64,000 nt of DNA from Candidatus Omnitrophota bacterium (GCA_028715785.1 JAQURC010000006.1:21630-85629), one strand, 5' to 3'; shown: positions 27,544 through 46,082, numbered from the stretch's first letter. Notes: a model not told the origin generated them from the sequence alone. A program made the numbers and translations.

Positions 27544-27597
27544 TTTACCCAGATTTTACCTCTCTTTGAAGTAGATTTAACCCCTTTATTTTATACT
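27544..27597 (+). promoter_or_regulatory. Pho-box-like promoter: direct repeats TTTACC (27544), TTTACC (27555), TTTGAA (27565), TTTAAC (27576) with 10-11 bp periodicity, then TATACT (27592-27597).
   Basis: Four hexamer repeats in helical phase replace the -35 region, as in PhoB/PhoP-activated promoters. The -10 sits only 6-7 nt before ATG 27604 / TTG 27598, suggesting a possibly leaderless mRNA. Confidence 0.45.
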
Positions 27598-28007: not shown

Positions 28008-28061
28008 ATTTACACAGATTTTACCTGCGTTTAATTTAGAATCAATATGAAAAATGTAATA
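28008..28061 (+). promoter_or_regulatory. Pho-box-like promoter upstream of the porin gene: TTTACA (28008), TTTACC (28019), TTTAAT (28029), then extended -10 TGTAATAT (28054-28061).
   Basis: The sequence TTTACMCAGATTTTACCT is nearly identical to the box at 27544-27561. 11-bp periodicity. Confidence 0.45.
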
Positions 28062-29394: not shown

Positions 29395-29427
29395 CAAGCG
29401 TAATCAGCGAAAAGAGGAGGAATTAAA

Positions 29428-30246: not shown

Positions 30247-30269
30247 AGCGTTTACTCGGTAACCCTAAG

Positions 30270-30300: not shown

Positions 30301-30310
30301 TACTCCTATT

Positions 30311-31201: not shown

Positions 31202-32046
31202 AGAAAGAGTTTTCGCAAAATTTGGGATTTTTTGGTTTATTCCTCTGCATGCTTACTACCATTTTGGCCCTGGGCTCAATTATTTATTTTATCGCGGCGC
31301 GTGGATTTAGCGTGTTGAGTTGGAGTTTTCTTACCCAGGTGCCGTATTCGGCGATGACTAAAGGCGGGATTGCGCCGGTTATCGTGGGCACATTTTATAT
31401 TACTTTGGGGGCGATTATGTTTGCTCTTCCGCTGGGGATTGCTTGCGCGGTATATCTTTGCGAGTATTCACCTAAGAGCATCGTGGTAAATATTATTAGA
31501 ATCAGCATCAATAATCTGGCCGGCGTGCCATCGGTTGTCTTTGGCCTATTTGGCTTAGCGGTGTTCGTTAAATTCTTCGGTTTTGGAGTTTCCATTCTCT
31601 CCGGAAGCCTGACTTTAGGGATTTTGGCGCTGCCAATGATAATCTCCTCAGCGCAAGAGGCGCTTTTGGCCGTTCCTCAATCAATCAGGGAAGCTTCATT
31701 ATCTCTGGGGGCGACGAAATGGGGAACTATCAAAAATATCGTCTTACCTACAGCTTTGCCCGGGATCCTTACCGGTGTGATTTTAAGTATTGGCAGGGTG
31801 GCCGGAGAAACTGCACCGATTCTATTTACCGCCGCCGCCTTTTATACGCGCGGCTATCCTAAATCCGTATTTTCCGAAGTCATGGCCCTGCCGTACCATA
31901 TTTACGCGCTGATGACTGAAGGAGCGCATCCGGATAAGCAAAGAGCGATTGCCTATGGTTGCAGCTTGGTGCTTTTATTTTTGGTTTTATTTATTTCAGG
32001 ATTTGCTATATTCTTGCGTCAAAGGCAGAGGAGTTTGTATGGATAA
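31198..32046 (+). CDS. pstA: Phosphate ABC transporter permease PstA.
   Basis: ATGA start/stop overlap with pstC. PstA blocks ([34 protein letters not shown]-loop [12 protein letters not shown]). Confidence 0.8.
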
Positions 32047-32800
32047 CAAGATAAAAATGCAGGCAAAAAACGTGGATTTTTTTTACGGGAAAAACCAGGC
32101 GCTAAAAAATGTCAACCTCAATGTTTATGCCAATAAAGTTACGGCGATGATCGGGCCTTCAGGCTGCGGCAAATCAACATTCATCCGTCTGTTTAACCGG
32201 ATGAATGAATTAGTCGCGCATACAACCCTTAAAGGCAAGATTTTGCTGGATGATTTGGATATTAACAGCCCTCTGGTTGATGCCGTGGATATTCGAAAAA
32301 GGGTGGGGATGGTTTTTCAGAAACCCAATCCTTTTCCTAAAACTATATTTGAAAATATAAGCTACGGTTTAAAAGTGAACGGAATAAAAGATAAAGCGTT
32401 TATTGAGCAGAAGGTTGAAGATTCCTTAAAGAAGGCGGTTATCTGGGCTGAAGTAAAGGACAGGCTTAATGACAGTGCTTTGAAATTATCCGGCGGGCAG
32501 CAACAACGTTTATGTATTGCCCGGTGTTTGGCCGTAGAGACAGAGGTAATACTATTTGATGAGCCATGTGCCAGCCTGGATCCGATATCAACCGCTAAGA
32601 TAGAGGAATTGATTTTGGAGCTTAAAAAAGATTATTCCATTGTGATTGTCACGCATAATATGCAGCAGGCAGCGCGGGTCTCTGATTATACAGGGTTTTT
32701 CCTTTTGGGGGAGTTGATTGAGTTTGGAAAAACGCAGGATATATTTACCGCTCCCAAAGATAAAAAAACCGAGGCTTATATAACCGGTAGGTTTGGTTAA
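32039..32800 (+). CDS. pstB: Phosphate ABC transporter ATPase PstB (canonical).
   Basis: Walker [11 protein letters not shown]-loop [12 protein letters not shown], signature LSGGQQQRL, Walker [13 protein letters not shown]-loop [11 protein letters not shown]. 8-nt overlap with pstA. Start taken as MDNKI (32039), not the track's 31949. Confidence 0.85.
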
Positions 32801-32829
32801 ACAAGGCAACTTATTAGCGAGGTCTGATT

Positions 32830-33507
32830 ATGGAAAGACATTTTGACGTAGAGTTGGCCGATTTAAAAAGTAGTATACTTCAGATGGGTGATTTAGTGGA
32901 GGAAGCGATTATTGATTCGGTGGAGGCGCTTAAACAGTTACGTAAAGATAAAGCTGCCAGGGTGATTGCCGAAGATAAGATTGTTGATGAGTGCGAACTT
33001 AAAATTGATGAAGAGTGTCTGGATCTTTTGGCTTTAAGGCAGCCGATGGCAGTGGACCTGCGTTTTATTACCATGGCGATGAAGATCTCTACTGATTTGG
33101 AAAGAATGGCGGATCTGGCTGTGGATATCTCCCAGCGGGTGTTGGAATTAGCAGATAAGCCGCTGCTTAAGCCGCTGGTAGATATACCAAAATTAACCCT
33201 GCTTGCGCAAAAGATGACTCGTGATGCCATAAGTTCATTTGTTAATAAAGACGCGGAATTAGCCAGGATAGTAATATCGAGCGATCGAGAAGCCGATAAC
33301 CTGCGTGATCTAGTTCAACAGGAGCTGCTCAATGATTATATCTCCAAAAATAAAACAACTATTCCACGCGCTATTCCTTTACTTTTGATTGCCCGCCATC
33401 TTGAGCGTATCTGCGATCACGCCACTAATATCGCCGAAGATGTAATCTATATGGTTGAGGCAAAGGTAGTAAAACACCACCTGGAAAAATTAGATGAAAA
33501 CAGTTGA
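32830..33507 (+). CDS. phoU: Phosphate uptake regulator PhoU.
   Basis: Two PhoU repeats with conserved ERxADxxTNIAE-type motifs (DLERMADLAVDIS; LERICDHATNIAEDVIY). Confidence 0.8.
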   Translation: MERHFDVELADLKSSILQMGDLVEEAIIDSVEALKQLRKDKAARVIAEDKIVDECELKIDEECLDLLALRQPMAVDLRFITMAMKISTDLERMADLAVDISQRVLELADKPLLKPLVDIPKLTLLAQKMTRDAISSFVNKDAELARIVISSDREADNLRDLVQQELLNDYISKNKTTIPRAIPLLLIARHLERICDHATNIAEDVIYMVEAKVVKHHLEKLDENS

Positions 33508-33569
33508 TTTAAGATGGTTGCTGCAATATTATAATGTCGCGTTGTATTTTAAAAGGAGATACTTTTAGC

Positions 33570-34001
33570 ATGGATAAGAAAAAAGTTTTATTTGTTTGCG
33601 TGCATAACTCGGCTCGTTCGCAAATGGCCGAAGCGTTTTTAAAACAGATGGCTGGTGATAGATTTGAGGTGGAGAGCGCGGGCCTGGAGCCTGGCAAGTT
33701 AAATCCCACAGTTGTCGAGGTGATGAAAGAGGTAGGCATCGATATTTCACAGAACAAGACTAAGAGTGTGTTTGATTTCTACAAACAGGGTAAACGATAT
33801 GATTATGTTGTGACTGTGTGCGCTGAATCGCAAGCGGAAAAGTGTCCTATTTTTCCCGGGACAGCAGTCACACAAAGAATGCATTGGGGTTTTGATGACC
33901 CCTCGAGTTTTCAGGGGGGCCAGGATGAGAGAATGAAGAAAATCCGCCAGGTTAGAGATAAAATTAAACGCCGGATTATGGAATGGATTAATGAAAGATA
34001 G
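33570..34001 (+). CDS. arsC: Low-molecular-weight protein-tyrosine-phosphatase / arsenate reductase (ArsC, LMWP family).
   Basis: Catalytic P-loop CVHNSARSQMAE (CX5R(S/T)) at the N-terminus, plus a downstream Cys pair (VTVCAES, EKCPIF) as in thioredoxin-coupled ArsC. 144 aa. Confidence 0.6.
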   Translation: MDKKKVLFVCVHNSARSQMAEAFLKQMAGDRFEVESAGLEPGKLNPTVVEVMKEVGIDISQNKTKSVFDFYKQGKRYDYVVTVCAESQAEKCPIFPGTAVTQRMHWGFDDPSSFQGGQDERMKKIRQVRDKIKRRIMEWINER

Positions 34002-34875
34002 CCGGTGCAAAGTATTTTGCTTGCCTGTTATTATCCGCCCCCGTTTACTATCAGTTATTTTAATGGTATTAGCTTTATCCTTGAATACAGTTGTTCAGGG
34101 TTCCTTTGCCCAAGGTGCCGATTCTACTTATCGCAAAGGTATAGAATACGCTTCCGAAGGAAGATTCCCGGAGGCTGCGGATTGGTTTCAAGATAACCTA
34201 AAAAACAATAAATCAGATTCTACTTCACTTAGTTCCCTTATCGTTATTAAGGATTTAAATGACGGTAAAATTACCGATGTGTATGCCAAGTCTTTTTTTA
34301 CAGGATTGAATTTTCTACAAAACGGTAATATAGATGATGGGCTTAAGGAGCTCCAGAAGGCTATAGAATTTAATCCAGGCTATCCTAAGCCGTATAATGT
34401 CATTGGTGTGGTTTATGCTTCAGTTGGGGATAAATCCAAAGCCATTGATTATTTCCAAAAAGCCATAGAAATAAATCCTCAATATAGCCAGGCATGTTTT
34501 AACCTAGCCGCGTTGTATCAATCATCAGCCCAGCCGGAAGATGCCCTTAAGTATTATGAGAAAGTAATATCTTTGGATCCAAATTCTTTCGAAGCAATAA
34601 TTAATATGGCCGCAATTTATGCTTTACTTGGGAAATACTCCGAAGCGATTAGGTATTATCAAAATGCCATCGGGTTGGATGGGAATAACCCCGAACTGTA
34701 TTATAACCTCGCCCTATCTTATTTTATGTCTGATCAATTTAGAAAGTTTAAAGAAAATCTTCTTAAATCCCAAGAATTATATCAAGAAAAAGGTGATCGC
34801 CAGGGGCTTGAGAAAGTAGCAGTATATATGAATAAGATGAAAGAAATTGAAAGCAAGGCAAGGCATACCAAGTAA
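33991..34875 (+). CDS. Secreted TPR-repeat protein.
   Basis: Signal peptide (LSVILMVLALSLNTVVQGSFAQ). Several 34-aa TPR-like repeats (AIEYFQKAIEINPQYSQACFNLAALYQ...). Confidence 0.6.
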   Translation: MKDSRCKVFCLPVIIRPRLLSVILMVLALSLNTVVQGSFAQGADSTYRKGIEYASEGRFPEAADWFQDNLKNNKSDSTSLSSLIVIKDLNDGKITDVYAKSFFTGLNFLQNGNIDDGLKELQKAIEFNPGYPKPYNVIGVVYASVGDKSKAIDYFQKAIEINPQYSQACFNLAALYQSSAQPEDALKYYEKVISLDPNSFEAIINMAAIYALLGKYSEAIRYYQNAIGLDGNNPELYYNLALSYFMSDQFRKFKENLLKSQELYQEKGDRQGLEKVAVYMNKMKEIESKARHTK

Positions 34876-34933
34876 GCAACTCCCCTCATTAGAACGGACA
34901 CTCCCTGATTGTTAATTGTAATTATGCGGTAAA

Positions 34934-34987
34934 TTTACAAAGAATTTACATTGCCTTAATAATTAGTTAACAAATTAATTGTATATT
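34934..34987 (+). promoter_or_regulatory. Pho-box-like promoter: TTTACA (34934), TTTACA (34945), TTAATA (34956) at 11-bp period, then extended -10 TGTATATT (34980-34987).
   Basis: Direct hexamer repeats of the same type as at 27544 and 28008. Located upstream of the TPR / giant-membrane-protein unit. Confidence 0.45.
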
Positions 34988-35076
34988 TTCTATGTAAGCA
35001 ATGGATTAAAAAGCCACGGAAGGGAAAGGTCTCGTAAAAGAGGCTTTTCCCTTAAAATATCACCAGGGAATCAAAA

Positions 35077-35730
35077 ATGTTAAAAATAAGAGGCACTATT
35101 TTATCCATAATATTTATCCTTTTATTGTCGCGCTATGCCGTGGCCGAAGTAGTTACTCTCAAATCCGGCAAGGTTATTGACGGTGAAATTGTCGAAAGAA
35201 ATAAAGACTATGTTAAAGTTAAATATGATGGACAAGAGATTTATTATGAAAATAAATATATTAAAAATATAGAGGCACAAAATACGCCTGAGCCAGCCGT
35301 GAATGCGGAAAAAGAAAAAGCAGCGCAAGATCCAATGCCATCTTTTAAGAGCGCAATAGAGTTGGCTGCGGCAGGGAACTTCAGCCAGGCTAGGCAGGAA
35401 TTTCAAAAGCAGTTCAATGATATAAAAGGAGGGCTTAATATTCTTGATGATGTGGAGAAAGGCTTAATCAGTAAAGAGTATGCCATCTATTTATTTCAAG
35501 GGTCATTGCATATGATTAACGGGGAATATAATTTAGCCATAACATCTTTGGAAAAGGCCTGGGAAATTAATCCCAGGGATCCGGATCTAAATTATAACCT
35601 CGGTTCCGCTTATTTTTCCTTGGGGGAATATAAAGAATCAATCGTGTATTTGTCCGCTGTTTTAAAATTACAACCGCTTGATACCGAGGCCCAGGAGCTT
35701 CTAACCAGGGCTTATCATGGACAAAACTAA
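35077..35730 (+). CDS. Secreted TPR-repeat protein (217 aa).
   Basis: Signal peptide MLKIRGTILSIIFILLLSRYAVA. C-terminal TPR repeats (YNLAITSLEKAWEINPRDPDLNYNLGSAYFSLGEYKESIVYL). Confidence 0.6.
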   Translation: MLKIRGTILSIIFILLLSRYAVAEVVTLKSGKVIDGEIVERNKDYVKVKYDGQEIYYENKYIKNIEAQNTPEPAVNAEKEKAAQDPMPSFKSAIELAAAGNFSQARQEFQKQFNDIKGGLNILDDVEKGLISKEYAIYLFQGSLHMINGEYNLAITSLEKAWEINPRDPDLNYNLGSAYFSLGEYKESIVYLSAVLKLQPLDTEAQELLTRAYHGQN

Positions 35731-35747
35731 ACAGCTAATTCCTCAAC

Positions 35748-38700
35748 ATGTTTAGAATGTTACGTAGAATCTTAGCCTGCCTGTTATGTTTTACGCTCCT
35801 CTTTGAACAGAGTGGTTTTGCCCAGTCTGTAGCGGAAGGCAATTTCTTAGGTTTTTTTGCCCCTCCTCACCTAAGCGGCGCCTTTAATCCCGCGCGTCTT
35901 CGCTATGTTGCATACGCCGAAAACATCAATAAATTTAAATTTTTATTTGACAAGGGTGATTTAAGAGATACTGACGATTTTACTTTAAAGGATTCAATCA
36001 GCGGACCTTTAAGTTATTTTTTGGTAGGGATAACTTTACCGAGCGAAAGTTTCTGGGTAAATCTGCGGCCGGATTCCCCGGCTAATGTTATCGATGATTT
36101 ACTGGCTGAAACTGATGTGGGCAAGATTTTCTTAGAAGCCGACTTGCAGTTAAAGAAGGAGTTTGCTCGTTACACTATGTCTGCCCAGCAGGGAAAAGAA
36201 TATCGGCTGCAAATCAGGAAAAAAGCCGAAGAGCTTTTTGGCTGCCTGGCGTTAGCTCCTTCAACTTTTACCCGCGTGTGGATTGACCCGGGTGAGATAA
36301 TCATCAGAGAAACTCAAAACAGCGCTTATATATATAAAGCAAATTTGAATGTGCTTACGGAGGAAGATTATTTTGGAAATTCCTTGGCCTCTGAAGATAA
36401 ACGGGTACAGGCTTTTAACGAATACGCGTCAGAACTTATAAAAAATTTAATTTTACCCAAGCTTATCAAGGAGGTGAATACCGGGAAAGAATTTGCCGCT
36501 TTAAGACAGGTTTATTATTCTTTTATTTTAGCTCAGTGGTTTAAAAATAGATTCTTGCAGCGTAACGGTCCAGCGCCCCGGTTTATCGATAGTAAAATTT
36601 TATCTGGTCTTAATTCTAAACATCCTTGGTCCAAGGAGGATTATTTTGCGCAATACCAGGAATCAGTACAAAGGGGGGACTACCGTTTTGATGAAAGAGA
36701 ACCTTTAGTTTTTGGAGAAATGGTAACTAGTTATTCTTGCGGCGGGGTAACTCTGGCATTAAAAATTCCGCCTTTTGCTTCTGCGGGGATGATCACTAGT
36801 GATGGGAGTATGACTTTAATAGGCGGAAGAGAAATAGAAGGTATTTTATCCCCTGACCGGGTTCTTGACCTAGGGTTAATCAGTGCAACTGCAAAATTTG
36901 ATCTAAAGGATCCGCTGGGTAATGTTATTGTTGAATCCGCAGCAAGTTCAGTTCGTAATGCTGCGTCAGCCGCTCCTGTTTCTGCTGCCAGCAGCGCGCA
37001 GGCGATGAATGACGGTGGAAGCCAGGTATTGAAAAAAGCAAAAGAAAAACTAAGTGTGTTAGAATTAAATAATCCGGCTTATTTAATTGCCGCGGAGCTA
37101 TTGCTTGGCGCTTTATTTATTTTTGGATTTTTTGTTGACGCCGGGAGTATGTTTTATAACTATGGGGTATTTGGACACTCCGTAATAGAAAGGTTTGTCG
37201 GTTATCCCTTGCCGAGTTTGAATGAGTATTTCCAGATTATCTCGCTTTCTTTTATTGCCTTTAACGCCTTGTTTGGATTATCAAAATCACCCGCGGTTAG
37301 GGCAAAAACCGGGCTTGCCCCCATTTTTTCAATACTTTCGGGATTTACGCTTTTTGGGATAGTGCCGCTGGCTATCAGCCTTACGGGTTTAGATAAATAT
37401 TTCAACTTGCAACTGGCGGTTTCTCCTTACGCGATGGAGGCCTTCGCGCTTTTGGGCGCGGCAGTTATAGGTCTATTGCCGGGGATGAATACTAAAAAGG
37501 AGAGCCCGGTTGATTTCCCTGAGAGTAGTCCGGATATAGAAAATAATACGGGTTGGGTGGAGCCTTCATGGGACGCTGTAGTAGAGGCGGCTTTGAATGA
37601 AGTAAACAAAAGGGCCGGTATTTCCGGCCTTACCGATGGAGCCTGTCTTGAGTTCCTGGAACAAACGCGCAAGCTCAGAAACCTCCTGCCTTTTGAATCG
37701 CATATCGTTACCGACAAAAGAGTCGCCTATTATCAGATTTACGACGAAGCTTTACAGTCTCTGTGCAAGAAACTCCAGGAAATTATGGATAGGCTGCGTG
37801 TAAGTACAGATGAGTTGGAACGAAAACGCCTGAATATCTACGCTTCTGAAATATTGGTTACTGCCGAATATTTTAATGAATGCCTGCGCGCTCTTAATGA
37901 GGTAGAGAATATCCCTCTTTCATCCGGTGACCGGCTTGACCGCAGCACCCCTTTTCGTAAAACAATCTCTTTTATTGTCGGGCATGCCTTTGGGTTTAAT
38001 AAGACATTTAACTATTCCAAGAAGGAGCTTATGAAGCAGCTAAAGGAGAAAATCATTCCGTTAGGCAATAGCTTGGATAACCTTTATTCGACAAAAGCCG
38101 ATATCGATAAGCAGGTTATTAAAAAGTGGGGGGAATGGATCCAAAACTGTTATGAAGGCAAAAGAAAAAGGCTGGGCGCCAGAAAAGGCTGGGTTTTTTG
38201 GAAAGAGATGTTCGGCCCGCTTGTCAGCCTGGTCTTGGTGGCTTCTGCACTTCCGATTGGCGGGAACATTGGTTTTCTAGAGTTCTTGTCCGCCCCTGAC
38301 TTTAGCGCGGGCGCTTTATGGAACGCAAAACCATTGGTAGGGCTTTCGCTTATTTTTTTGGGTTGGTATGTGTTACTGTTTCCCGGCAGAGGTAAAGCCG
38401 ACCAGACTTATAAAGAACACAATAAGACAATTGAGAAGTTAAAGCGGCAATTTAAAGACACTTTTTTCCTTATTGAGGGGGATTCAAGAAACAAGGCATT
38501 ACAATTTGCTTATGAGCAGTCTCTTGAAGCGGCTTGGAAAGAACTTTCTAGCGCCAGCGCAAGCGCGCAGGCAGTCATTGTTGTCACGGAACAGCCCAAA
38601 ATAATTCAGGATTTTCTTGAAAATTTGCGCGGTACGATATTACGAAAAGATGTCGAATTATTGGCTATTTCCGCCGAAAACAAAGGCAGTGCCGCGGCGT

Positions 38701-40094
38701 TTATCGAAGGTATGTTAGAAGCGCGGAAGTTTAAGAGAAGTATACTGTTGTTGGGAAGAGAGCAGGATATTGCGCGGTCATTGCAGCTTTTGCCGCTTCC
38801 GGCGTTTGAGCCGCTGGGGCGGCCATTGACCCCTTTGGAATTATCGCTGATTAATGGTTATCAGCTAACCCAGGCTTTAAAACAAAAAGGCCGTTGGGGT
38901 ACAGCGGTAGAAGTTACGCATAAATGCTTGATTCGTGATCTGAATTCATCATTGGAAGAAGTGCCTGACATGGAATTAACAACGGCATTGGTCGATATAG
39001 AGCAAATGGCCAGGCAGGATCTGGCATTAATTGTTGAAAATAACGGTAATGGCGGAAACGGTAAGCCAAAACCGTATGGGTGGATCCGCAAGATATTTAA
39101 ACATTTGAGTCTAGAAGACGTGAGAAATAAGACCGGGCCAAGGCATTTGCCCGCGTTTTCTGTTGACTGGCGCAATAAAGAAAAGCGGCAAATGCGCGTA
39201 TTCAGCGGAGAGATATTGGTAAGTATTCAGGATAAAGAACGCAATGAGTCTTTTATGTCGTTTCTTTCGCAAATGAAGGATTATATGGCTGAGCATTCCA
39301 AAGATAGTTTTCAACCCAATCTTACTACCCATTTTCTCGTTCCTCTGGTTATGCTTACTAATAACGAAGGAGCAGGGATTCACCGTTTTCGGGAGGGCCT
39401 GAATTTAAAAAATAAAGAGGATATTTTTTTAAAGGGGCTCTTCAATTTGTTTTGGCCTGAAGATGATACAGGGTATCACAGTAAATTAGCAGCTCTTCAA
39501 ATAGAAGCTCTTATACCCCATCAAAGTTCATTCTATACGCGTTTAGACGGCACTACGGATGCGGATGCGGTATTGAAACAACAATTAGGCGGCCTTTATA
39601 CTGAACCGCCTAACAAAGAAATTTTAACTTTACTGTACAGGGCTGCCCAAAACGAGGATACAGCCTCAATGCAACATGAATTAGACGGCGGGCATTCATC
39701 ATCCAATGTAATATCCTCCAGCCCGCAGAGAGTTGTAATTCCATCATTGGGAGCCGGCGTCGGCGGCATAGGTTTTTCTTCAATGAAAGTTGTCCTGAAC
39801 TACGATGATCTGTTGAAAATAGATGGGGAGTGGGGTCAAATTGAAAAGATGTTGGAGTCCGGAAACCTTCCCTCGATACCTTCGGTCACAAATTATGTGG
39901 AAACGGCGGTAAAAAATACTGATTCCGGTATGCAGTTATATAAAGCGATGGCCTGCGTTGCCGGTATCCTCAAACTGGAAGAAGAATTGGTAATCCCGGC
40001 GCAGATGGAAATTAAAAGGCTGTTGCTGGTGCTGGAAGAACATCTAAACCGGCAGGGCGGCCAAATGAATTCTAAGAATCTTGCTTTAAGGTAA
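35748..40094 (+). CDS. Giant hypothetical membrane protein (1448 aa) with signal peptide and two internal clusters of TM helices.
   Basis: Signal peptide MFRMLRRILACLLCFTLLFEQSGFAQS. Hydrophobic cluster ~aa 440-590 (four helices) and ~aa 820-880 (two helices). No recognisable catalytic motifs. Downstream of the Pho box at 34934. Confidence 0.6.
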   Translation: MFRMLRRILACLLCFTLLFEQSGFAQSVAEGNFLGFFAPPHLSGAFNPARLRYVAYAENINKFKFLFDKGDLRDTDDFTLKDSISGPLSYFLVGITLPSESFWVNLRPDSPANVIDDLLAETDVGKIFLEADLQLKKEFARYTMSAQQGKEYRLQIRKKAEELFGCLALAPSTFTRVWIDPGEIIIRETQNSAYIYKANLNVLTEEDYFGNSLASEDKRVQAFNEYASELIKNLILPKLIKEVNTGKEFAALRQVYYSFILAQWFKNRFLQRNGPAPRFIDSKILSGLNSKHPWSKEDYFAQYQESVQRGDYRFDEREPLVFGEMVTSYSCGGVTLALKIPPFASAGMITSDGSMTLIGGREIEGILSPDRVLDLGLISATAKFDLKDPLGNVIVESAASSVRNAASAAPVSAASSAQAMNDGGSQVLKKAKEKLSVLELNNPAYLIAAELLLGALFIFGFFVDAGSMFYNYGVFGHSVIERFVGYPLPSLNEYFQIISLSFIAFNALFGLSKSPAVRAKTGLAPIFSILSGFTLFGIVPLAISLTGLDKYFNLQLAVSPYAMEAFALLGAAVIGLLPGMNTKKESPVDFPESSPDIENNTGWVEPSWDAVVEAALNEVNKRAGISGLTDGACLEFLEQTRKLRNLLPFESHIVTDKRVAYYQIYDEALQSLCKKLQEIMDRLRVSTDELERKRLNIYASEILVTAEYFNECLRALNEVENIPLSSGDRLDRSTPFRKTISFIVGHAFGFNKTFNYSKKELMKQLKEKIIPLGNSLDNLYSTKADIDKQVIKKWGEWIQNCYEGKRKRLGARKGWVFWKEMFGPLVSLVLVASALPIGGNIGFLEFLSAPDFSAGALWNAKPLVGLSLIFLGWYVLLFPGRGKADQTYKEHNKTIEKLKRQFKDTFFLIEGDSRNKALQFAYEQSLEAAWKELSSASASAQAVIVVTEQPKIIQDFLENLRGTILRKDVELLAISAENKGSAAAFIEGMLEARKFKRSILLLGREQDIARSLQLLPLPAFEPLGRPLTPLELSLINGYQLTQALKQKGRWGTAVEVTHKCLIRDLNSSLEEVPDMELTTALVDIEQMARQDLALIVENNGNGGNGKPKPYGWIRKIFKHLSLEDVRNKTGPRHLPAFSVDWRNKEKRQMRVFSGEILVSIQDKERNESFMSFLSQMKDYMAEHSKDSFQPNLTTHFLVPLVMLTNNEGAGIHRFREGLNLKNKEDIFLKGLFNLFWPEDDTGYHSKLAALQIEALIPHQSSFYTRLDGTTDADAVLKQQLGGLYTEPPNKEILTLLYRAAQNEDTASMQHELDGGHSSSNVISSSPQRVVIPSLGAGVGGIGFSSMKVVLNYDDLLKIDGEWGQIEKMLESGNLPSIPSVTNYVETAVKNTDSGMQLYKAMACVAGILKLEEELVIPAQMEIKRLLLVLEEHLNRQGGQMNSKNLALR

Positions 40095-40109
40095 GGGGGC
40101 ATTTACGGC

Positions 40110-40385
40110 ATGAAAAATTACATTTTCAAAAATGATTTAAGGCGCAAGAATACAAAATTTCTTACAACAGCCAGCATGGTTTTAAAAACGTACGCTTGGT
40201 TTATTCTTATTTTAAGCGTATTGTCGGCAATATTGATAATGTCCGGGGTTTTAAGCAGCGTGCCGCCGTGGGCAGGCCTGGTTGTTTTATCCGCGTATAC
40301 ATTCTTCTTCTTTTTCTTCTACACCATAGCCGAAATTTCAGATTTATTGGTAGCGATCAAAGAGGCGTTACAAAGTAATTGTTGA
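40110..40385 (+). CDS. Small two-TM membrane protein (91 aa).
   Basis: Two hydrophobic helices (AWFILILSVLSAILIMSGVL; LVVLSAYTFFFFFFYTIAEI). Located 16 nt after the giant gene. Confidence 0.4.
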   Translation: MKNYIFKNDLRRKNTKFLTTASMVLKTYAWFILILSVLSAILIMSGVLSSVPPWAGLVVLSAYTFFFFFFYTIAEISDLLVAIKEALQSNC

Positions 40386-40483
40386 CTAAATCCCCGATTA
40401 ATTATTTACTTACTCATTAACATATCATATAATAATTCAGATTGTTTTACCCGCAATAATCTTTCCAAAGAAAGGTTAAAGAA

Positions 40484-41140
40484 ATGAATAAAACAGGCTT
40501 GGTGGCTATTGGTTTGATACTATTGTTATTAGCTAATGCCTATGCTTATGACGACGGTGATTTTCAGGTATGGAACACGGATGTCGAGGAAATCCAGCTT
40601 AAGAAAGATTTAAAGCTGGCCTTTGAGCAGGAGTTTCGCTGGGGGGATAACGCCAGTGAATTTTACTACCAGCATTATGATGTCGGATTAACCTATAACC
40701 TAAATAAATATTGGAGTGCCGGCGGTGGATACCGGCATGTGCTTAATAAAAGCAAAGATAAATTTTTGGTAGAAAACGAGCCTTATGTTACGGCCACTTT
40801 TGCCAGCCAATTTGCCGGATTTAAATATGATGACCGCAGCCGGCTGGAATATAACCATTTTGATTATAAAGATGACACCTGGCGCTACCGCAATAAGCTT
40901 ACGGTAAAGGCCCCCTGGAAATTTACTAAATTAGAGATCCAGCCGTTTGCTGCCGATGAGATATTCATTCTTTTTGATGATGGCCAGAGGTTAAGTGAAA
41001 ACAGGACGACTGCGGGTTTGGCGATGAATATCGCCAAAAACCTAAAAGGTGAAGTTTATTATATGTTCAGAACCGTAAAAAGCGGACTGAAGTGGACGGA
41101 TACGAATGTATTGGGAACAAAACTAAAGTTAGTGTTTTAA
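40484..41140 (+). CDS. Small outer-membrane beta-barrel-type protein (DUF2490-like), hypothetical.
   Basis: Signal peptide ending ANAYA. Alternating amphipathic strands rich in Y/W/G. C-terminal LKLVF (terminal Phe). Confidence 0.45.
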   Translation: MNKTGLVAIGLILLLLANAYAYDDGDFQVWNTDVEEIQLKKDLKLAFEQEFRWGDNASEFYYQHYDVGLTYNLNKYWSAGGGYRHVLNKSKDKFLVENEPYVTATFASQFAGFKYDDRSRLEYNHFDYKDDTWRYRNKLTVKAPWKFTKLEIQPFAADEIFILFDDGQRLSENRTTAGLAMNIAKNLKGEVYYMFRTVKSGLKWTDTNVLGTKLKLVF

Positions 41141-41142
41141 AT

Positions 41143-41186
41143 TTTACTTAGATTTAACATGGATTTAGAGTAAATACAAGTATAAT
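41143..41186 (+). promoter_or_regulatory. Pho-box-like promoter for operon 2: TTTACT (41143), TTTAAC (41153), TTTAGA (41164), AATACA (~41173), then perfect -10 TATAAT (41181-41186).
   Basis: Hexamer direct repeats at 10-11 bp phase abutting a consensus -10, ~35 nt before pstS2 ATG 41221. Confidence 0.45.
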
Positions 41187-41220
41187 AAAGGTAATATAAA
41201 TATGAGCAAATGGAGGAGAA

Positions 41221-42075
41221 ATGTTTAAGAAAGGTTTGTTTATTTTAGCTTTGCTTATCTTTACGGTTCCGGCGTTTGCCGGAAAAGATAAAAATTCCAT
41301 CCAGATTAAAGGCTCGGATACTATGGTCAATCTCGGACAGGCCTGGGCAGAGAAATATATGGAAAAAAATCCCGGGGATTTTGTGGCGGTAACCGGCGGC
41401 GGCTCCGGGACAGGATTGTCCAGTTTAATCAGCGGAACCTGCGATATCGCGATGAGCTCAAGAAATATCAAGGATAAAGAGATTTCTTTGGCCGAACAAA
41501 AAGGGATTGATCCTTTTGAGATAAAAGTTGCTTTGGATGGTTTGGCGGTAGTCGTCAATCCGGCTAATCCGGTGAGCAAGCTCACAGTGGAACAGCTGGC
41601 CGGAATCTTTACCGGCAGTATCACTAACTGGAAAGAAGTGGGGGGAAAAGACGGGAAGATCGTCATTCTTTCGCGCGAAGTAAATTCCGGGACCCACGTT
41701 TATTTTAAAGAGCACGTATTAAGGAAAGGCAATGCCAACGGCAGAGAGGAATTTGCTCCCGGAGCCTTGTTATTATCTTCTTCGCAGGCGATTGCCGATG
41801 AAGTTGCCGGTAATTCCGCAACGATAGGTTATTATGGGATGGGTTATATCTCAAGCAAGCAAAAGCCCGTTGCTATTGCTAAAGACGCTAAATCCGAATA
41901 CGTTAATCCCAGTATCGAGAATGTTCTAAGCGGTAAATACCCCATATCCAGGCCGCTTTTTCTATATACTAATGGAGAGCCGCAAGGACTGATTAGGAAA
42001 TTCGTTGATTATGCCCTTTCTAAAGAAGGTCAGGATATTGTAGTCAAGACGGACTTTGTTCCCATTAAAAAATAA
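41221..42075 (+). CDS. pstS: Phosphate-binding protein PstS (second copy).
   Basis: Signal peptide. Conserved PstS blocks (GSDTMVNLGQAWAEKY, VTGGGSGTGLSSL, LSREVNSGTHVYF, IGYYGMGY). Confidence 0.8.
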   Translation: MFKKGLFILALLIFTVPAFAGKDKNSIQIKGSDTMVNLGQAWAEKYMEKNPGDFVAVTGGGSGTGLSSLISGTCDIAMSSRNIKDKEISLAEQKGIDPFEIKVALDGLAVVVNPANPVSKLTVEQLAGIFTGSITNWKEVGGKDGKIVILSREVNSGTHVYFKEHVLRKGNANGREEFAPGALLLSSSQAIADEVAGNSATIGYYGMGYISSKQKPVAIAKDAKSEYVNPSIENVLSGKYPISRPLFLYTNGEPQGLIRKFVDYALSKEGQDIVVKTDFVPIKK

Positions 42076-42095
42076 TGCGAAAGTTATTAACAGTT

Positions 42096-42121
42096 GTAGG
42101 GGAGGTTTAAACCTCCCCTAC
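42096..42121. repeat. Palindromic hairpin family P1, copy C (GTAGGGGAGG-TTTAAA-CCTCCCCTAC), intercistronic between pstS2 and pstC2.
   Basis: Perfect 26-nt palindrome centred on GTTTAAAC. Confidence 0.75.
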
Positions 42122-42141
42122 ATTAAGGGTATCAGGCGGCT

Positions 42142-43005
42142 ATGCGGAAAATCAAGGAGTTTGTTATTGAGAAGCTAATCCTGGTCTGCGGCTTAGCTTC
42201 CATATTTTTTGTCATCCTAATTTTTTTATTTCTAACCAAAGAAGGCCTGTCCGTATTTAAATCGGTTAGTCCTTTTAATTTTCTTTTTGGCAAAAGCTGG
42301 TATCCCATCTCTGAACCGCCGCAATTAGGGATCTTACCGCTAATATTGGGTTCATTATTAGTGACCTTGGGAGCGGCAATTATTTCTATCCCTATAGGCG
42401 TAGCCTGCGCAGTTTATATCGCCGAAATCGCGCCATTAAAAATTAAAGAAATTCTAAAAGCCGGAATTGAATTATTGGCGGCTATACCCAGCGTGGTCTT
42501 AGGTTTTATTGGTATGGTAACTTTAGTCCCCTGGGTAAAGACTACTTTTCATCTGCCTACGGGTTTAACTGCCTTGTCCGGTTCGATAATTTTAGCTTTT
42601 ATGGCTATGCCGACGATAGTTTCGATTGCCGAGGACGCGCTTTATTCTGTTCCCAAAAGTTATAAAGAAGGCGCCTTTGCTTTAGGGGCTACGCATTGGC
42701 AGACAATTTACCGGGTTTTGCTTCCGGCTGCTTCTTCAGGGATAGTCGCGGCGGTAATGCTTGGTATCGGCCGGGTAATCGGCGAGACCATGGCGGTAAT
42801 GATGATTACCGGCAACGCCGCGGTCATTCCGCAGAGCATTCTTGTGCCGGTGCGCACTTTGACCGCCACCATTGCCGCGGAAATGGGCGAGGCGGTTGTG
42901 GGCAGCGAACATTATTTTGCGCTTTTTGCTATCGGCATAGTTTTATTCATCATAAGTTTTATCATCAATGTTACCGCGGACCTATTCTTGCACAAGAGGC
43001 ATTAA
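42142..43005 (+). CDS. pstC: Phosphate ABC permease PstC (second copy).
   Basis: Paralog of the 30311 gene (WYPISEPPQLGILP, PSVVLGFIG, ILAFMAMPTIVSIAEDAL). Confidence 0.8.
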   Translation: MRKIKEFVIEKLILVCGLASIFFVILIFLFLTKEGLSVFKSVSPFNFLFGKSWYPISEPPQLGILPLILGSLLVTLGAAIISIPIGVACAVYIAEIAPLKIKEILKAGIELLAAIPSVVLGFIGMVTLVPWVKTTFHLPTGLTALSGSIILAFMAMPTIVSIAEDALYSVPKSYKEGAFALGATHWQTIYRVLLPAASSGIVAAVMLGIGRVIGETMAVMMITGNAAVIPQSILVPVRTLTATIAAEMGEAVVGSEHYFALFAIGIVLFIISFIINVTADLFLHKRH

Positions 43006-43853: not shown

Positions 43854-44593
43854 AACTTAACGCCAGGAACCTGAATATCTGGTTTGGCCAGATCCACGCT
43901 TTAAAAAGCGTGAACATCGAGGTAGAGGCCAATGAGATTTTAAGCGTAATCGGCCCGTCCAACAGCGGAAAGACCAGTTTCCTGCGCATGCTTAATCGTC
44001 TGAATGACCTGTATCCGGGTTTTAAAATGAGCGGCAGCTTAGAGTTTGATCAAGAGGATATCAGAAAAATAGATATTGAGGTTTTGCGCAAAAAAGTAGG
44101 CATGGTTTTTGCTTTACCCCTGCCCCTGCCTTTATCGATTTTTGAAAATGTGGCCTATGGGGTCAGGATGCACGGAGAAAATAACCGCGGCCGGATCTCC
44201 GGGATTGTCGAGCGTTCCTTAAAGCAAGCCTATCTCTGGGATGAGGTCAAGGACAGGTTGGATGTCTCGGCTTTTAAATTATCCGGCGGACAGCAGCAGC
44301 GTCTTTGCATTGCCCGGACCCTGGCGGTTGAGCCGGAGGTCATCTTATTCGATGAGCCTTGTTCCGGGCTTGACCCGATTTCAACCGCCAAAGTTGAAGA
44401 GGCAATGTTAAAGCTGAAAAAAGACTATACAATAGTTTTAGTAACTAACAATGTAAAGCAGGCGGCCAGGGTGGGGGACCGCACGGCTTTTTTTCTGTCA
44501 GGAGAGCTGATAGAATTGGACAAAACAGAAAAGATGTTTACGGCGCCCAGCGACCAGCGTACCGATGGCTATATTAGAGGAAAGTTTGGATAA
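43847..44593 (+). CDS. pstB: PstB-like ATPase with degenerate catalytic loops (Q-loop Gln to Ala, H-loop His to Asn); signature motif intact.
   Basis: Walker [11 protein letters not shown]-loop region [13 protein letters not shown] (canonical [10 protein letters not shown]). Signature LSGGQQQRL. Walker [13 protein letters not shown]-loop [12 protein letters not shown] (canonical VTHNMQQ). Confidence 0.75.
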
Positions 44594-46073: not shown

Positions 46074-46082
46074 TTTCTAGTT

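What the first reader, a model, noticed from the sequence alone, without database searches (positions are those of the whole stretch)
33570..41140. Pho-box-driven island of secreted TPR proteins, a 1448-aa membrane giant, a mini membrane protein and an OMP sandwiched between two complete pst-phoU operons
Between pst operon 1 (29428-33507) and operon 2 (41221-46073) lie ArsC/LMW-PTP, two signal-peptide TPR proteins, a 1448-aa protein with signal peptide and two TM-helix clusters, a 91-aa two-TM protein and a small OMP. None has an obvious catalytic motif. A TTTACA-N5-TTTACA-N5-TTAATA Pho-box-like array (34934-34961) plus extended -10 precedes the TPR/giant unit. It is of the same type found upstream of the orphan receiver, the porin and pstS2. 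This predicts a phosphate-starvation-induced envelope complex of unknown function, possibly a phosphate-scavenging or surface-remodelling apparatus.
Basis: partly seen in the sequence, partly recalled or inferred. Interest (0 to 1): 0.7.

Follow-up and report, generated by a model that had tools for sequence, protein, structure and literature searches.

The report
Phosphate-regulon giant with hidden nucleotidyltransferase domain
Between two phosphate-transporter operons of an uncultured Omnitrophota bacterium lies a phosphate-starvation-type promoter driving a TPR protein and a 1448-residue membrane protein, which belongs to a large undescribed Omnitrophota protein family, contains a hidden sugar-nucleotide-enzyme fold, and sits next to phosphate genes in at least seven genomes.

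Summary
All ORFs lie at the stated coordinates, and the repeat at 34934 is a four-unit, 11-bp-phased array ending 9 bp before a -10 box. The same architecture precedes the orphan receiver, the porin and pstS2. It also lies directly upstream of the orthologous giant genes in two other genomes.

Relatives carrying the same middle modules sit inside phoBR/porin/pstSCAB-phoU clusters in all six other genomes with enough context. Two of these repeat the "sandwich" between two pst operons. A TPR2-type secreted protein accompanies the giant in most loci, and the 91-aa two-TM protein in three loci. DUF2490 was seen in none of the other loci, and TPR1-like genes also precede other family members.

The giant is not an orphan:
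- Residues 1-340 and about 1340-1431 are shared with hundreds of Omnitrophota proteins that carry unrelated enzyme "cargo". This family has no Pfam, NCBIfam or PDB match.
- The metal-binding Asp position conserved in paralogs is His-Lys in the window protein.

Best reading: a Pho-regulon, membrane-anchored nucleotide-sugar-type module that supports the phosphate-starvation response, probably envelope remodelling. Expression, activity and topology are untested.

The parts
27544..27582 (+). Pho-box-like array (4 units) upstream of the orphan receiver, followed by -10 TATACT. The receiver's real start is probably ATG 27604.
28009..28047 (+). Pho-box-like array upstream of the Porin_5 / pst operon 1
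33534..34001 (+). LMW-PTP/ArsC-like gene at the end of pst operon 1 (likely start 33570). The same gene sits inside the pst-phoU operons of L004, L086, L090 and L091.
33991..34875 (+). TPR1, a signal-peptide TPR protein. It overlaps the LMWPc stop, so it is probably co-transcribed with pst operon 1. TPR1-like genes also precede non-Pho family members.
34934..34972 (+). Pho-box-like array of four 11-bp-phased units: TTTACA, TTTACA, TTAATA, TTAACA. It is the best match in the window.
34980..34987 (+). TG + TATATT, a putative extended -10, 9 bp after the last repeat unit
35018..35052 (+). 14-bp stem-loop in the predicted 5' leader of TPR2. No Rfam match.
35077..35730 (+). TPR2: signal peptide, a small beta-domain (VVTLKSGK...YIKNIE) and TPR repeats. 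Orthologs lie next to the giants in L004, L086, L090 and L074, and in the same locus in L001.
35748..40094 (+). The 1448-aa giant (identical to NCBI hypothetical protein PHP73_05735, Candidatus Omnitrophica MAG)
35748..35822 (+). Signal-peptide-like N-terminus (aa 1-25, MFRMLRRILACLLCFTLLFEQSGFA|Q)
35823..36767 (+). [not shown]
37080..37487 (+). TM cluster 1 (aa 445-580, four hydrophobic segments). The number of segments varies among orthologs.
37635..38207 (+). mid1 module (aa ~630-820). It recurs, sometimes in tandem, in related Pho-linked giants. No structure was predicted.
38220..38387 (+). TM hairpin (aa 825-880), flanked on both sides by K/R-rich segments
38565..39617 (+). Sugar-1-phosphate nucleotidylyltransferase-fold domain (aa ~940-1290), FKP/FPGT-like. 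His1058-Lys1059 occupy the alignment position of the Asp-Gly conserved in paralogs, and Lys1115 is invariant.
39762..40040 (+). Family-wide C-terminal module: a degenerate GGIGF version of the 'GGIDFRxLP' motif (aa 1339-1343), then a four-helix domain (aa ~1356-1431)
40110..40385 (+). 91-aa two-TM protein. It is conserved immediately downstream of the giants in L005 (73% identity) and L004 (41%).
40484..41140 (+). DUF2490 protein with a signal peptide and C-terminal Phe (probable small outer-membrane barrel). It has its own TTTACT-17-TATAAT promoter-like site at 40405-40433 and was found in none of the fetched loci.
41143..41186 (+). Pho-box-like array (3 units), 10 bp, then TATAAT, upstream of pstS2. 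The same arrangement is found at the orthologous position in L086.

Best explanation
The segment 34934-40385 is a PhoB-type (Pho-box) transcription unit inside the phosphate supercluster of an Omnitrophota genome. It encodes a secreted beta-domain/TPR protein, a 1448-aa membrane-anchored protein and a two-TM mini-protein.

The large protein is a member of an Omnitrophota-specific family. In this family a conserved signal-peptide-bearing N-domain (about 315 aa) and a conserved C-terminal module bracket variable enzyme 'cargo'. Here the cargo is a helical module, a TM hairpin, and a domain with the FKP/FPGT-type sugar-1-phosphate nucleotidylyltransferase fold.

Proposed mechanism. When phosphate is scarce, phosphorylated PhoB binds the four phased repeats that replace the -35 box and switches the unit on together with the porin and both pst operons. 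[quoted passage not shown] It would be coupled through its exported N-domain to the periplasmic TPR partner. The likely purpose is phosphorus-sparing remodelling or turnover of envelope glycoconjugates.

What is shown by computation: the gene content, the repeat architecture and its conservation, the synteny, the family membership and the fold.

What is inferred: PhoB binding and Pi-dependent induction, cytoplasmic location of the fold, any enzymatic activity, the interaction with the TPR and 91-aa proteins, and the link to the envelope.
For: Promoter.
- The array has four 11-bp-phased units ending 9-10 bp before a -10 hexamer.
- It is present at 4 promoters of the window, and at 12 promoters in 4 genomes overall. 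These include positions directly upstream of the giant in L001 and L004.
- PHO boxes of PhoB/PhoP regulators are tandem 11-nt direct repeats, usually two or four, close to the -35 (PMC2275107).
- phoB- and phoR-like genes lie 8 kb upstream.

Synteny. Giants sharing the mid1/NTase modules lie in pho/pst clusters in every locus with enough context.
- L001/L002 and L004.
- L086 and L090, which have the same 'between two pst-phoU operons' position as the window.
- L091.
- L092, where the neighbours are PPK1, Metallophos, GT4 and MGDG-synthase genes.
- L074 adds a PhoU-TPR-TPR-giant arrangement.
- Family members with other cargo lie among housekeeping genes.

Fold.
- The AF2 model of aa 881-1448 has pLDDT 82, and above 90 over most of the domain.
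- Foldseek gives the same top hit (E 7.9e-8, probability 1.00).

Conserved motifs. They are arranged in the order expected for FKP/FPGT enzymes, an assignment made from memory of those sequences rather than by superposition. There is an invariant Lys (K1115) and, in paralogs, an F-x-D-G strand end that I assign to the metal site.

Topology. K/R-rich flanks on both sides of the TM hairpin (7 and 7 K/R, against 1 in the loop) place mid1 and the NTase fold in the cytoplasm.

Partners. TPR2 has a signal peptide and is conserved next to the giants.
Against: - There is no expression or binding data.
- The Asp-Gly conserved in paralogs, which I assign to the Mg2+ site (FKP Asp136), is His-Lys in the window protein and its closest orthologs. 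The pyrophosphate-loop Arg (FKP Arg80) has no clearly conserved counterpart. The domain may therefore be catalytically altered or inactive.
- No sequence-level match to NTP_transferase or Fucokinase families or to PDB sequences.
- Topology is inconsistent. A Sec-type signal peptide plus an even number (4+2) of TM segments would put every soluble domain outside.
- The TPR partner is absent next to the giants in L091 and L092. The 91-aa protein is absent in most loci.
- The window contains no glycosyltransferase or lipid-remodelling gene adjacent to the unit.
Confidence: 0.5

Rival explanations
1. Regulatory or sensor reading. The nucleotidyltransferase-fold domain is a pseudo-enzyme that binds a phosphorylated metabolite (NTP, sugar-phosphate or PPi). 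The membrane protein would report cellular or envelope phosphorus status to the Pho circuitry (PhoR/PhoU, the orphan receiver, or the second OmpR-type regulator encoded next to it in other genomes).
For: - His-Lys replaces the Asp-Gly conserved in paralogs, in the window protein and in P0003, P0004, P0121 and P0122.
- Orthologs carry a PadR-like winged-helix domain between the NTase fold and the C-domain: 3 members match, best E 7.6e-5.
- The gene sits directly after phoR, or beside an extra OmpR-type regulator and the receiver, in L001, L004, L091 and L092.
Against: - The window protein lacks the winged-helix domain.
- Paralogs that keep the Asp are just as tightly Pho-linked (L086, L090, L091, L092). 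Linkage therefore does not depend on loss of the catalytic residue.
- No known signalling domain is present.
Confidence: 0.2
2. Extracytoplasmic scavenging reading, close to the first reader's. The signal peptide is real and all soluble domains are exported. Together with the secreted TPR proteins and the outer-membrane protein, the giant would form a periplasmic or surface apparatus. It would harvest phosphorus from external or host-derived nucleotides, NDP-sugars or phosphorylated polymers, with the NTase fold acting in the hydrolytic or pyrophosphorolytic direction.
For: - The N-terminus is Sec-like (3 K/R, a 12-aa hydrophobic core, G-F-A|Q) and the number of TM segments is even, 4+2.
- The partners carry signal peptides.
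- The unit lies next to a porin and two high-affinity Pi importers.
- Omnitrophota are proposed epibionts or predators. Their giant proteins are predicted to be largely extracellular, including glycolytic-enzyme domains (10.1101/2023.11.21.568195, PMC10066038).
Against: - The charge distribution strongly violates the positive-inside rule under this topology.
- The orthologs' winged-helix domain and the NTP-dependent fold are typical of the cytoplasm.
- P0003 has an odd TM count, 1+2.
- DUF2490 is not conserved with the giant.
Confidence: 0.15
3. Passenger reading. The giant is just one copy of an expanding lineage-specific family that happened to land between duplicated pst operons. The repeat upstream would be an AT-rich chance match.
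For: - The family is multi-copy and its members are scattered over genomes.
- The two-unit pattern alone is only marginally enriched.
Against: - Linkage to pho/pst holds in 6 of 6 further genomes with context, at 25-45% protein identity and in three different gene orders.
- The four-unit array plus -10 is conserved upstream of the orthologs.
- Phased-triplet enrichment is 6 against 1.3 +/- 1.0.
Confidence: 0.03

Closest known systems
Pho regulon promoters (PHO boxes bound by PhoB/PhoP-type OmpR-family regulators)
   Same: - Tandem direct repeats with 11-bp periodicity, usually two or four units, placed at or near the -35 (PMC2275107).
- Here there are 3-4 units ending 9-10 bp before the -10, at pstS2, the porin/pstS1 operon, a receiver gene and the TPR2-giant unit. 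phoB- and phoR-like genes lie adjacent.
- From my own knowledge, the hexamer TT(T/A)ACA resembles the Bacillus subtilis PhoP core site TT(A/T/C)ACA.
   Different: - The unit consensus is lineage-specific: units 1-2 TT(T/C)ACA, unit 3 TTAAKG, unit 4 (G/T)TAAC(A/C).
- Binding and Pi-dependence have not been shown for any Omnitrophota.
GDP-fucose pyrophosphorylase domain of FKP / FPGT and the sugar-1-phosphate nucleotidylyltransferase superfamily
   Same: - The order of conserved elements looks the same (strand-1 Ser/Thr, G-x-G-S-G, G-rich loop after strand 3, strand ending in Asp, Lys-containing strand) in the paralogs. This comparison rests on my memory of FKP/FPGT motifs, not on a superposition.
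   Different: - 12% identity, with no Pfam or PDB sequence match.
- It is embedded in a 1448-aa membrane protein.
- His1058-Lys1059 occupy the alignment position of the Asp-Gly conserved in paralogs.
- The essential Arg of the PPi loop is not clearly conserved.
- There is no fucokinase or left-handed beta-helix partner domain.
Omnitrophota very long proteins ('archaeovorins' and relatives; West-Roberts et al. 2023, bioRxiv 10.1101/2023.11.21.568195; bioRxiv 10.64898/2026.06.07.730766)
   Same: - Same phylum.
- N-terminal regions without annotated domains, near signal peptides.
- Interspersed TM helices.
- Cargo of cytoplasm-type enzymes: phosphoglucomutase, glucose-6-P isomerase, FBP aldolase/phosphatase, methyltransferases and kinases.
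- The same unresolved inside/outside problem.
   Different: - This protein has 1448 aa, against more than 10,000-100,000 aa.
- It has no SecA_DEAD, C39 or dockerin domains.
- The conserved about 315-aa N-domain and the GGIDF plus four-helix C-module described here are not mentioned in the passages of those papers that I read.
Phosphate-starvation envelope remodelling systems (PlcP-Agt glycolipid pathway; B. subtilis tua teichuronic-acid operon)
   Same: - These are Pho-regulated replacements of P-containing envelope components by glycoconjugates that consume NDP-sugars (PMC4796936, abstract seen; the tua operon is from my own knowledge).
- In L092 the giant's neighbours are a Metallophos protein, a GT4 and an MGDG-synthase-like glycosyltransferase, and PPK1.
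   Different: - There is no homology to PlcP, Agt or Tua proteins.
- No glycosyltransferase lies next to the unit in the window.
- The link is by context in one genome plus the fold.
Polymorphic / modular secreted proteins with constant ends and variable cargo (e.g. polymorphic toxins, PMC3482391)
   Same: Constant N-terminal trafficking-type region with variable enzymatic modules. One mosaic relative is known: in P0002 the ends are 73% and 50% identical but the NTase module only 30%.
   Different: - Both ends are constant and the middle varies.
- The cargo consists of housekeeping-type enzymes embedded in housekeeping or regulon contexts.
- No immunity genes or toxin domains were seen.

Membership tests
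Pho regulon (PhoB/PhoP-dependent promoter) | Tandem direct repeats with 11-bp periodicity (two or more units) | tested here: met
   Four phased units lie at 34934-34972. There are 3-4 units at 27544, 28009 and 41143. The definition comes from PMC2275107.
Pho regulon (PhoB/PhoP-dependent promoter) | The array takes the place of the -35 box at a fixed short distance from a -10 hexamer | tested here: met
   The last unit ends 9-10 bp before TATATT, TATACT, TAATAT or TATAAT in all four window promoters and in those of L001, L004 and L086.
Pho regulon (PhoB/PhoP-dependent promoter) | The same motif occurs at canonical Pho genes, with the cognate phoB/phoR present | tested here: met
   It occurs upstream of the porin-pstS1 operon, pstS2 and the receiver. 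phoB- and phoR-like genes lie at 25704-27509. Only 64 kb of the genome was available, so this is not a genome-wide test.
Pho regulon (PhoB/PhoP-dependent promoter) | Pi-limitation-dependent transcription and PhoB~P binding | not testable with these tools
   This needs expression data or EMSA/footprinting.
Sugar-1-phosphate nucleotidylyltransferase superfamily (FKP-NTD/FPGT-like) | Rossmann-like nucleotidyltransferase fold | tested here: met
   [not shown]
Sugar-1-phosphate nucleotidylyltransferase superfamily (FKP-NTD/FPGT-like) | Sequence-profile membership (Pfam NTP_transferase/Fucokinase, or a PDB sequence match) | tested here: not met
   No Pfam hit for the giant. Of 24 relatives, only one has NTP_transferase, at E 0.21. 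There are no PDB sequence hits up to E 10.
Sugar-1-phosphate nucleotidylyltransferase superfamily (FKP-NTD/FPGT-like) | Metal-binding Asp at the end of the central strand (FKP Asp136) | tested here: not met
   The window has V-T-H1058-K1059, and P0003, P0004, P0121 and P0122 have H-K/Q. Paralogs P0002, P0014 and most others have F-x-D-G. Equivalence rests on motif order and secondary structure, not on a residue-level superposition.
Sugar-1-phosphate nucleotidylyltransferase superfamily (FKP-NTD/FPGT-like) | Pyrophosphate-binding G-rich loop with essential Arg (FKP G75-G76-x-S78-R79-R80), and catalytic Lys (FKP Lys187) | tested here: inconclusive
   The loop L-L-L-G-R-E-Q-D (aa 1000-1007) keeps one Gly and one Arg, and the loop varies among relatives. 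Lys1115 is invariant in 24 sequences and lies in a strand, as expected for the catalytic Lys.
Sugar-1-phosphate nucleotidylyltransferase superfamily (FKP-NTD/FPGT-like) | NTP + sugar-1-P -> NDP-sugar + PPi activity | not testable with these tools
   A biochemical assay is needed.
Omnitrophota N-domain / C-module family (undescribed; defined here) | Signal-peptide-like N-terminus plus an about 315-aa N-domain with motifs FWVNLRPD, EADLQLKKD, RxWIxPGE, ALRQVYYS | tested here: met
   It is 45-50% identical to more than 110 proteins, with 52 invariant columns in A1. There are 431 loci in species-representative genomes. Nearly all of the 80 listed are labelled Omnitrophota; the rest carry Planctomycetales, Deltaproteobacteria or unclassified labels.
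Omnitrophota N-domain / C-module family (undescribed; defined here) | C-terminal 'GGIDFRxLP' motif followed by a helical domain of about 75 aa | tested here: met
   The helical domain is matched in most members. The motif is present in 110 of 120 members, and is degenerate in the window protein (GGIGF, aa 1339-1343).
Archaeovorin-type giant proteins (West-Roberts et al. 2023) | Length above 10,000-30,000 aa with numerous TM regions and divergent SecA DEAD domains | tested here: not met
   The protein has 1448 aa, six hydrophobic segments and no SecA domain.
DUF2490 (PF10677) | Pfam profile match above the gathering score | tested here: met
   118.8 bits against a cut-off of 29.8.
Thioredoxin-type arsenate reductase ArsC (TIGR02691) / LMW-PTP | Profile match above the curated cut-off | tested here: inconclusive
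   Pfam LMWPc is met (83.8 bits against 23.2). NCBIfam arsC_pI258_fam scores 131.6 bits, below its cut-off of 174.3.

The most novel reading that the evidence does not exclude
The giant may be the first member with readable context of a previously undescribed, phylum-wide Omnitrophota system. In this system a constant signal-peptide-bearing N-domain of unknown fold and a constant C-terminal 'GGIDF + four-helix' module bracket hundreds of different enzymes that are normally cytoplasmic. The cargo includes methyltransferases, kinases, Nudix, HD, GNAT, radical SAM, GAPDH, PGK, PGM, transaldolase and, here, a nucleotidyltransferase. The system could be a dedicated device for sorting, tethering or exporting metabolic enzymes to the membrane, the periplasm or a partner cell. 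Individual members would be wired into ordinary regulons such as Pho.
Probability: 0.3. Interest if true: 0.85.

Novelty: new variant of a known kind. Interest (0 to 1): 0.62.

Why it matters
- It defines the likely PhoB operator and the core Pho regulon of an uncultured phylum. It adds a conserved regulon member of unknown function whose fold makes testable biochemical predictions (nucleotide or sugar-phosphate binding; the His-for-Asp variant).
- It exposes a large protein family (at least 431 loci in species-representative genomes) that has no Pfam, NCBIfam or structural counterpart. This family poses the same inside/outside paradox already noted for the phylum's famous giant proteins.
- The Pho-linked member offers a tractable 1.4-kaa entry point, with a known inducing signal, for working out what these architectures do.

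Tried and rejected
- A homolog search with the middle region (aa 590-1345) given as plain letters returned nothing, although an identical protein is in the database. I replaced it with the exhaustive representative search, which gave 41 clusters.
- Sequence-profile searches of the N-domain and of the C-half against the PDB found nothing. Pfam and NCBIfam had no hit for the giant.
- There is no paralog of the giant elsewhere in the window.
- There is no Rfam family in 27400-46400.
- The generic terminator and promoter scans were uninformative, at shuffle level. The exceptions were a sigma-70-like site before DUF2490 and a strong hairpin after phoU2.
- My guess that the insert in P0004 and P0122 is a LysM domain was not supported for them by the precomputed Pfam column, which shows '-' for P0004.
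- I considered a lipoprotein, Tat or prepilin-type N-terminus and rejected all three. There is no lipobox Cys in the right position, no consistent twin-Arg motif, and the hydrophobic stretch precedes rather than follows the G-F.
- More distant proteins sharing only the NTase core are not Pho-linked (P0133, and P0139 next to glycogen genes). The linkage therefore applies to the full mid1-TM-NTase architecture only.
- Literature searches found no description of the N-domain family.

Full report
**What is in the window.** The 64-kb window comes from a Candidatus Omnitrophota metagenome-assembled genome. The 1448-aa ORF is 100% identical to NCBI hypothetical protein PHP73_05735.

All genes from 25.7 to 46.1 kb lie on the + strand. 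In order they are:
- a phoB-like regulator and a phoR-like kinase;
- an orphan receiver;
- a Porin_5 porin;
- pstS-C-A-B-phoU;
- an LMW-PTP/ArsC-like gene;
- TPR1;
- a 201-bp gap;
- TPR2;
- the 1448-aa ORF;
- a 91-aa ORF;
- a DUF2490 ORF;
- pstS-C-A-B-B-phoU.

A strong hairpin follows the second phoU.

**The repeat array.** It has four 11-bp-phased hexamers (TTTACA, TTTACA, TTAATA, TTAACA), then 9 bp, then TG-TATATT.
- The same architecture (3-4 units, 9-10 bp, a -10 hexamer) precedes the receiver (27544), the porin/pst1 operon (28009) and pstS2 (41143).
- A phased three-unit search with at most 4 mismatches finds 6 sites, against 1.3 +/- 1.0 in simulations. Five of the six fall in two of these promoters, and the 34934 array scores best.
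- The looser two-unit pattern alone is only marginally enriched, at 15 against 9.1 +/- 2.8.
- Tandem 11-nt repeats near the -35, usually two or four, are the defining structure of PHO boxes (PMC2275107).

The comparative result matters most. In two other genomes the orthologous giant genes are preceded by the same four-unit array plus a -10. In L004 it reads TTCACA/TTCACA/TTAAGG/GTAACG, then 9 bp, then TATACT. In L001 the same array lies one base out of register. That array also precedes the second regulator and the receiver in those genomes, and the receiver and pstS2 in L086. In total there are 12 promoters in 4 genomes. I regard Pho-type control of the TPR2-giant unit as well supported by comparative evidence, but it is experimentally untested.

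**Synteny.** Proteins sharing the giant's middle modules are rare: 41 representative clusters among 1.84 billion proteins. Every one that I could place on a contig with enough flanking sequence, and that has the full architecture, lies in a pho/pst cluster.

| Locus (protein) | Gene order |
|---|---|
| L001/L002 (P0003) | phoB-phoR-(85 aa)-giant-TPR-RR-receiver-porin-pstSCA |
| L004 (P0004) | phoB-phoR-giant-89aa-TPR-RR-receiver-porin-pstSCAB-phoU-LMWPc |
| L086 (P0014) | phoB-phoR-receiver-porin-pstSCAB-LMWPc-phoU-TPR-giant-pstSCABB-phoU |
| L090 (P0131) | same sandwich as the window |
| L091 (P0125) | phoB-phoR-receiver-giant-porin-pstSCAB-LMWPc-phoU-pstS |
| L092 (P0134) | PPK1-CYTH-Metallophos-GT4-MGDG_synth-RR-giant-porin-pstSCAB-phoU |

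- L074 adds a PhoU-TPR-TPR-giant arrangement. P0002's contig (L005) is too short to judge.
- Family members with other cargo (P0020, P0012) lie among housekeeping genes.
- Distant proteins sharing only the enzyme-fold core are not Pho-linked.

Accessory genes:
- TPR2-type proteins (signal peptide, small beta-domain, TPR repeats) are adjacent to the giant in L004, L086, L090 and L074, and are in the same locus in L001.
- The 91-aa two-TM protein recurs in L005 (73% identity) and L004 (41%).
- DUF2490 recurs in none of the fetched loci and has its own sigma-70-like promoter.
- A TPR1-like gene (61% identity) precedes a family member with different cargo in L026.

**Anatomy of the giant.** BLAST mapping of 120 homologs shows that only aa 1-340 (45-50% identity) and aa ~1340-1431 (about 30%) are widely shared.

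The proteins sharing these ends are 800-2500 aa long. Their middles carry very different Pfam domains, including:
- MidA-type methyltransferase, protein kinases, HATPase_c and GGDEF;
- metallophosphoesterase, HD, Nudix and GNAT;
- radical SAM/PPDK;
- GAPDH, PGK, PGM, transaldolase, glucose-6-P isomerase and FBP aldolase/phosphatase;
- M23, HEAT and TPR.

Properties of the shared ends:
- The N-terminal region is highly conserved, with 52 invariant columns among 16 diverse members. It starts with a signal-peptide-like segment ending in the conserved FEQSGFAQ.
- The N-domain has no Pfam, NCBIfam or PDB sequence match.
- A pattern scan of species-representative genomes found 431 loci. Nearly all of the 80 listed are labelled Omnitrophota; the rest carry Planctomycetales, Deltaproteobacteria or unclassified labels. 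Several genomes hold two to four copies among the top 80 alone.
- The C-terminal module has a 'GGIDFRxLP' motif (110 of 120 members), a spacer of about 30 aa and a four-helix domain. In the window protein the motif is degenerate, GGIGF.

I found no description of this family in the papers on Omnitrophota giant proteins. Those papers do report similar enzyme cargo and unannotated N-terminal regions.

**The specific cargo.** Between the constant ends the window protein has four hydrophobic segments (aa 445-580), a helical module (mid1, aa ~630-820), a TM hairpin (aa 825-880) and a 400-aa domain.

An AF2 model of aa 881-1448, built on 24 relatives, is confident: mean pLDDT 82, and above 90 across most of the domain.
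- Foldseek independently gives the same top hits (E 7.9e-8 and 1.6e-6).
- There is no sequence-level signal.

The alignment of relatives shows the element order I expect for FKP/FPGT. That expectation comes from memory of those sequences and was not checked by superposition. The elements are:
- SA[DE]-x-V-x-V-x-T;
- G-x-G-S-G-x-A-F;
- R-x-I-V-L-L-A-G-x-x-D;
- G-G-x-x-V-x-F-x-D-G;
- G-D-I-T-L-L-G-S-W;
- R-I-x-K-x-Y-E-K;
- D-I-L-V-P-L-I-M-x-x-N-G-E-N.

These can be compared with the FKP residues shown to matter: Asp31, Gly75/76, Ser78, Arg79/80, Lys89, Asp136 and Lys187 (PMC11982464).
- Lys1115 is invariant and is the likely counterpart of the catalytic Lys.
- The strand-end Asp, which I equate with the metal ligand, is kept in P0002, P0014 and most paralogs.
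- That Asp is His1058-Lys1059 in the window protein and H-K/Q in P0003, P0004, P0121 and P0122.
- The pyrophosphate loop is variable.

The fold is therefore secure, and catalytic competence is open, especially for the window's clade. The orthologs also carry a PadR-like winged-helix domain that the window protein lacks.

**Topology.** This is unresolved and I flag it as such.
- For export: the N-terminus has every feature of a cleavable Sec signal (3 K/R, a 12-residue core, G-F-A|Q). The accessory TPR proteins are also secreted. This suggests an exported N-domain.
- For a cytoplasmic location: the K/R distribution is decisive for the TM hairpin. There are 7 K/R before it, 1 in the loop and 7 after it. 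This places mid1 and the nucleotidyltransferase fold in the cytoplasm. The segments around TM cluster 1 follow the same pattern.
- The conflict: with 4+2 segments, both statements cannot be true together. P0003 (1+2 segments) would be consistent with them, but P0004 and P0122 (2+2) would not.
- The wider puzzle: most family members have no TM segment beyond the N-terminal one, yet they carry cytoplasm-type cargo. West-Roberts et al. noted the same puzzle for glycolytic domains of archaeovorins.

**Interpretation.** My best explanation (confidence about 0.5 for the whole chain) has four steps.
1. PhoB~P activates the unit at low Pi.
2. The giant anchors an NTP/phospho-sugar-type domain at the inner membrane.
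3. The domain is connected through the exported N-domain to the periplasmic TPR2 protein and perhaps the 91-aa protein.
4. The system serves phosphorus-sparing remodelling or turnover of envelope glycoconjugates.

The last step rests on three things: the fold, general knowledge that Pho regulons include NDP-sugar-consuming remodelling pathways (PlcP-Agt glycolipids, PMC4796936; teichuronic acid in Bacillus, from my own knowledge), and the L092 neighbourhood (Metallophos, GT4, MGDG synthase, PPK1). The sub-claims 'conserved Pho-regulon member' and 'nucleotidyltransferase fold' each deserve about 0.85.

Rivals:
- A regulatory pseudo-enzyme or sensor (0.2). It is favoured by the His-for-Asp change, the winged helix in orthologs, and the position beside regulators.
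- A fully exported scavenging apparatus (0.15). It is favoured by the signal peptide and the even TM count, and disfavoured by the charge bias and the cofactor logic.
- Chance adjacency (0.03).

**Novelty and verdict.** Pho boxes, duplicated pst operons and accessory Pho genes are well known. What is new is a conserved Pho-linked member with a cryptic nucleotidyltransferase fold, built into an Omnitrophota-specific protein architecture that has no entry in the libraries searched.

I file the finding as a new variant of a known kind (a Pho-regulon accessory unit). The family-level architecture is the more radical possibility: a phylum-wide device for tethering or exporting enzymes (probability about 0.3). 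Regulation and synteny were predicted correctly. The composition of the unit, the 'no catalytic motif' statement and the purely envelope-located picture need revision.

Noticed in passing
window 35748-36767 and 39762-40040; loci L006-L085: The giant's N-terminal 340 aa and its C-terminal 'GGIDF + four-helix' module define a multi-paralog family essentially confined to Omnitrophota. There are 431 loci in species-representative genomes, with 2-4 copies per genome among the top 80. The family brackets very diverse enzyme cargo and has no Pfam, NCBIfam or PDB counterpart.
   Followed up: partly
L005 (P0002) versus window 35748-40094: P0002 is mosaic relative to the window protein. Its N-domain is 73% identical and its C-module about 50%, but its nucleotidyltransferase-fold module is only about 30% identical and is of the Asp-containing paralog type. 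This suggests cargo exchange between constant ends.
   Followed up: no
L001 10001-14524, L004 10001-15514 (P0003, P0004, also P0121, P0122, P0002, P0014): Orthologs carry an extra PadR-like winged-helix domain between the nucleotidyltransferase fold and the C-module. The window protein lacks it.
   Followed up: partly
window 33534-34001; L004 23727-24173; L086 8049-8504; L090 5979-6419; L091 19964-20455: An LMW-PTP/ArsC-like gene is a conserved member of the pstSCAB-phoU operon in Omnitrophota. This would be consistent with arsenate detoxification coupled to phosphate uptake. Its score is below the NCBIfam ArsC cut-off.
   Followed up: partly
window 41221-46073; L086 14147-19409; L090 13048-18300: The second pst operon has two tandem pstB genes (43847-44593 and 44593-45348). 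The whole two-operon arrangement, including the double pstB, is conserved in distant Omnitrophota genomes.
   Followed up: partly
window 27592-27606: The orphan receiver's listed TTG start (27598) overlaps the predicted -10 (TATACT). The likely start is ATG 27604, only about 6 nt after the -10, which suggests a leaderless or nearly leaderless mRNA.
   Followed up: partly
window 35018-35052: A 14-bp GC-rich stem-loop lies in the predicted leader between the Pho box and TPR2 (region MFE -26 kcal/mol). It has no Rfam match. The adjacent AAGCCACGGA(A/G)G string is also present upstream of the small ORF that precedes the giant in L001.
   Followed up: partly
L092 703-7912: In one genome the Pho-linked giant is preceded by polyphosphate kinase 1, a CYTH protein, a metallophosphoesterase, a GT4 glycosyltransferase and an MGDG-synthase-like glycosyltransferase. 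This set is reminiscent of PlcP/Agt-type phosphate-starvation lipid remodelling.
   Followed up: no
L004 9905-10001: The database gene call for P0004 starts too far downstream. The signal-peptide-like N-terminus (…LLLFFEQSGFAQV) is encoded upstream of the annotated start, right after the Pho-box promoter.
   Followed up: partly
window 967-6513: A 1848-aa ORF has no Pfam domain at E<=1e-5. tblastn shows no similarity to the Pho-linked giant.
   Followed up: no
window 20732-26396 versus L001 1-7640 and L026 259-2781: The block RNR ... GidA-Fer4-phoB-phoR is shared between the window and L001. In L026, GidA-Fer4 is followed directly by a TPR1 ortholog (61% identity) and a family member with different cargo. 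The region is therefore a rearrangement hotspot for this family.
   Followed up: partly
L094 134-5642: A 672-aa protein sharing only the nucleotidyltransferase-fold core (P0139) lies next to GH77 amylomaltase and a glycogen-debranching-type gene. This fits a sugar-nucleotide-related ancestry of the fold.
   Followed up: no
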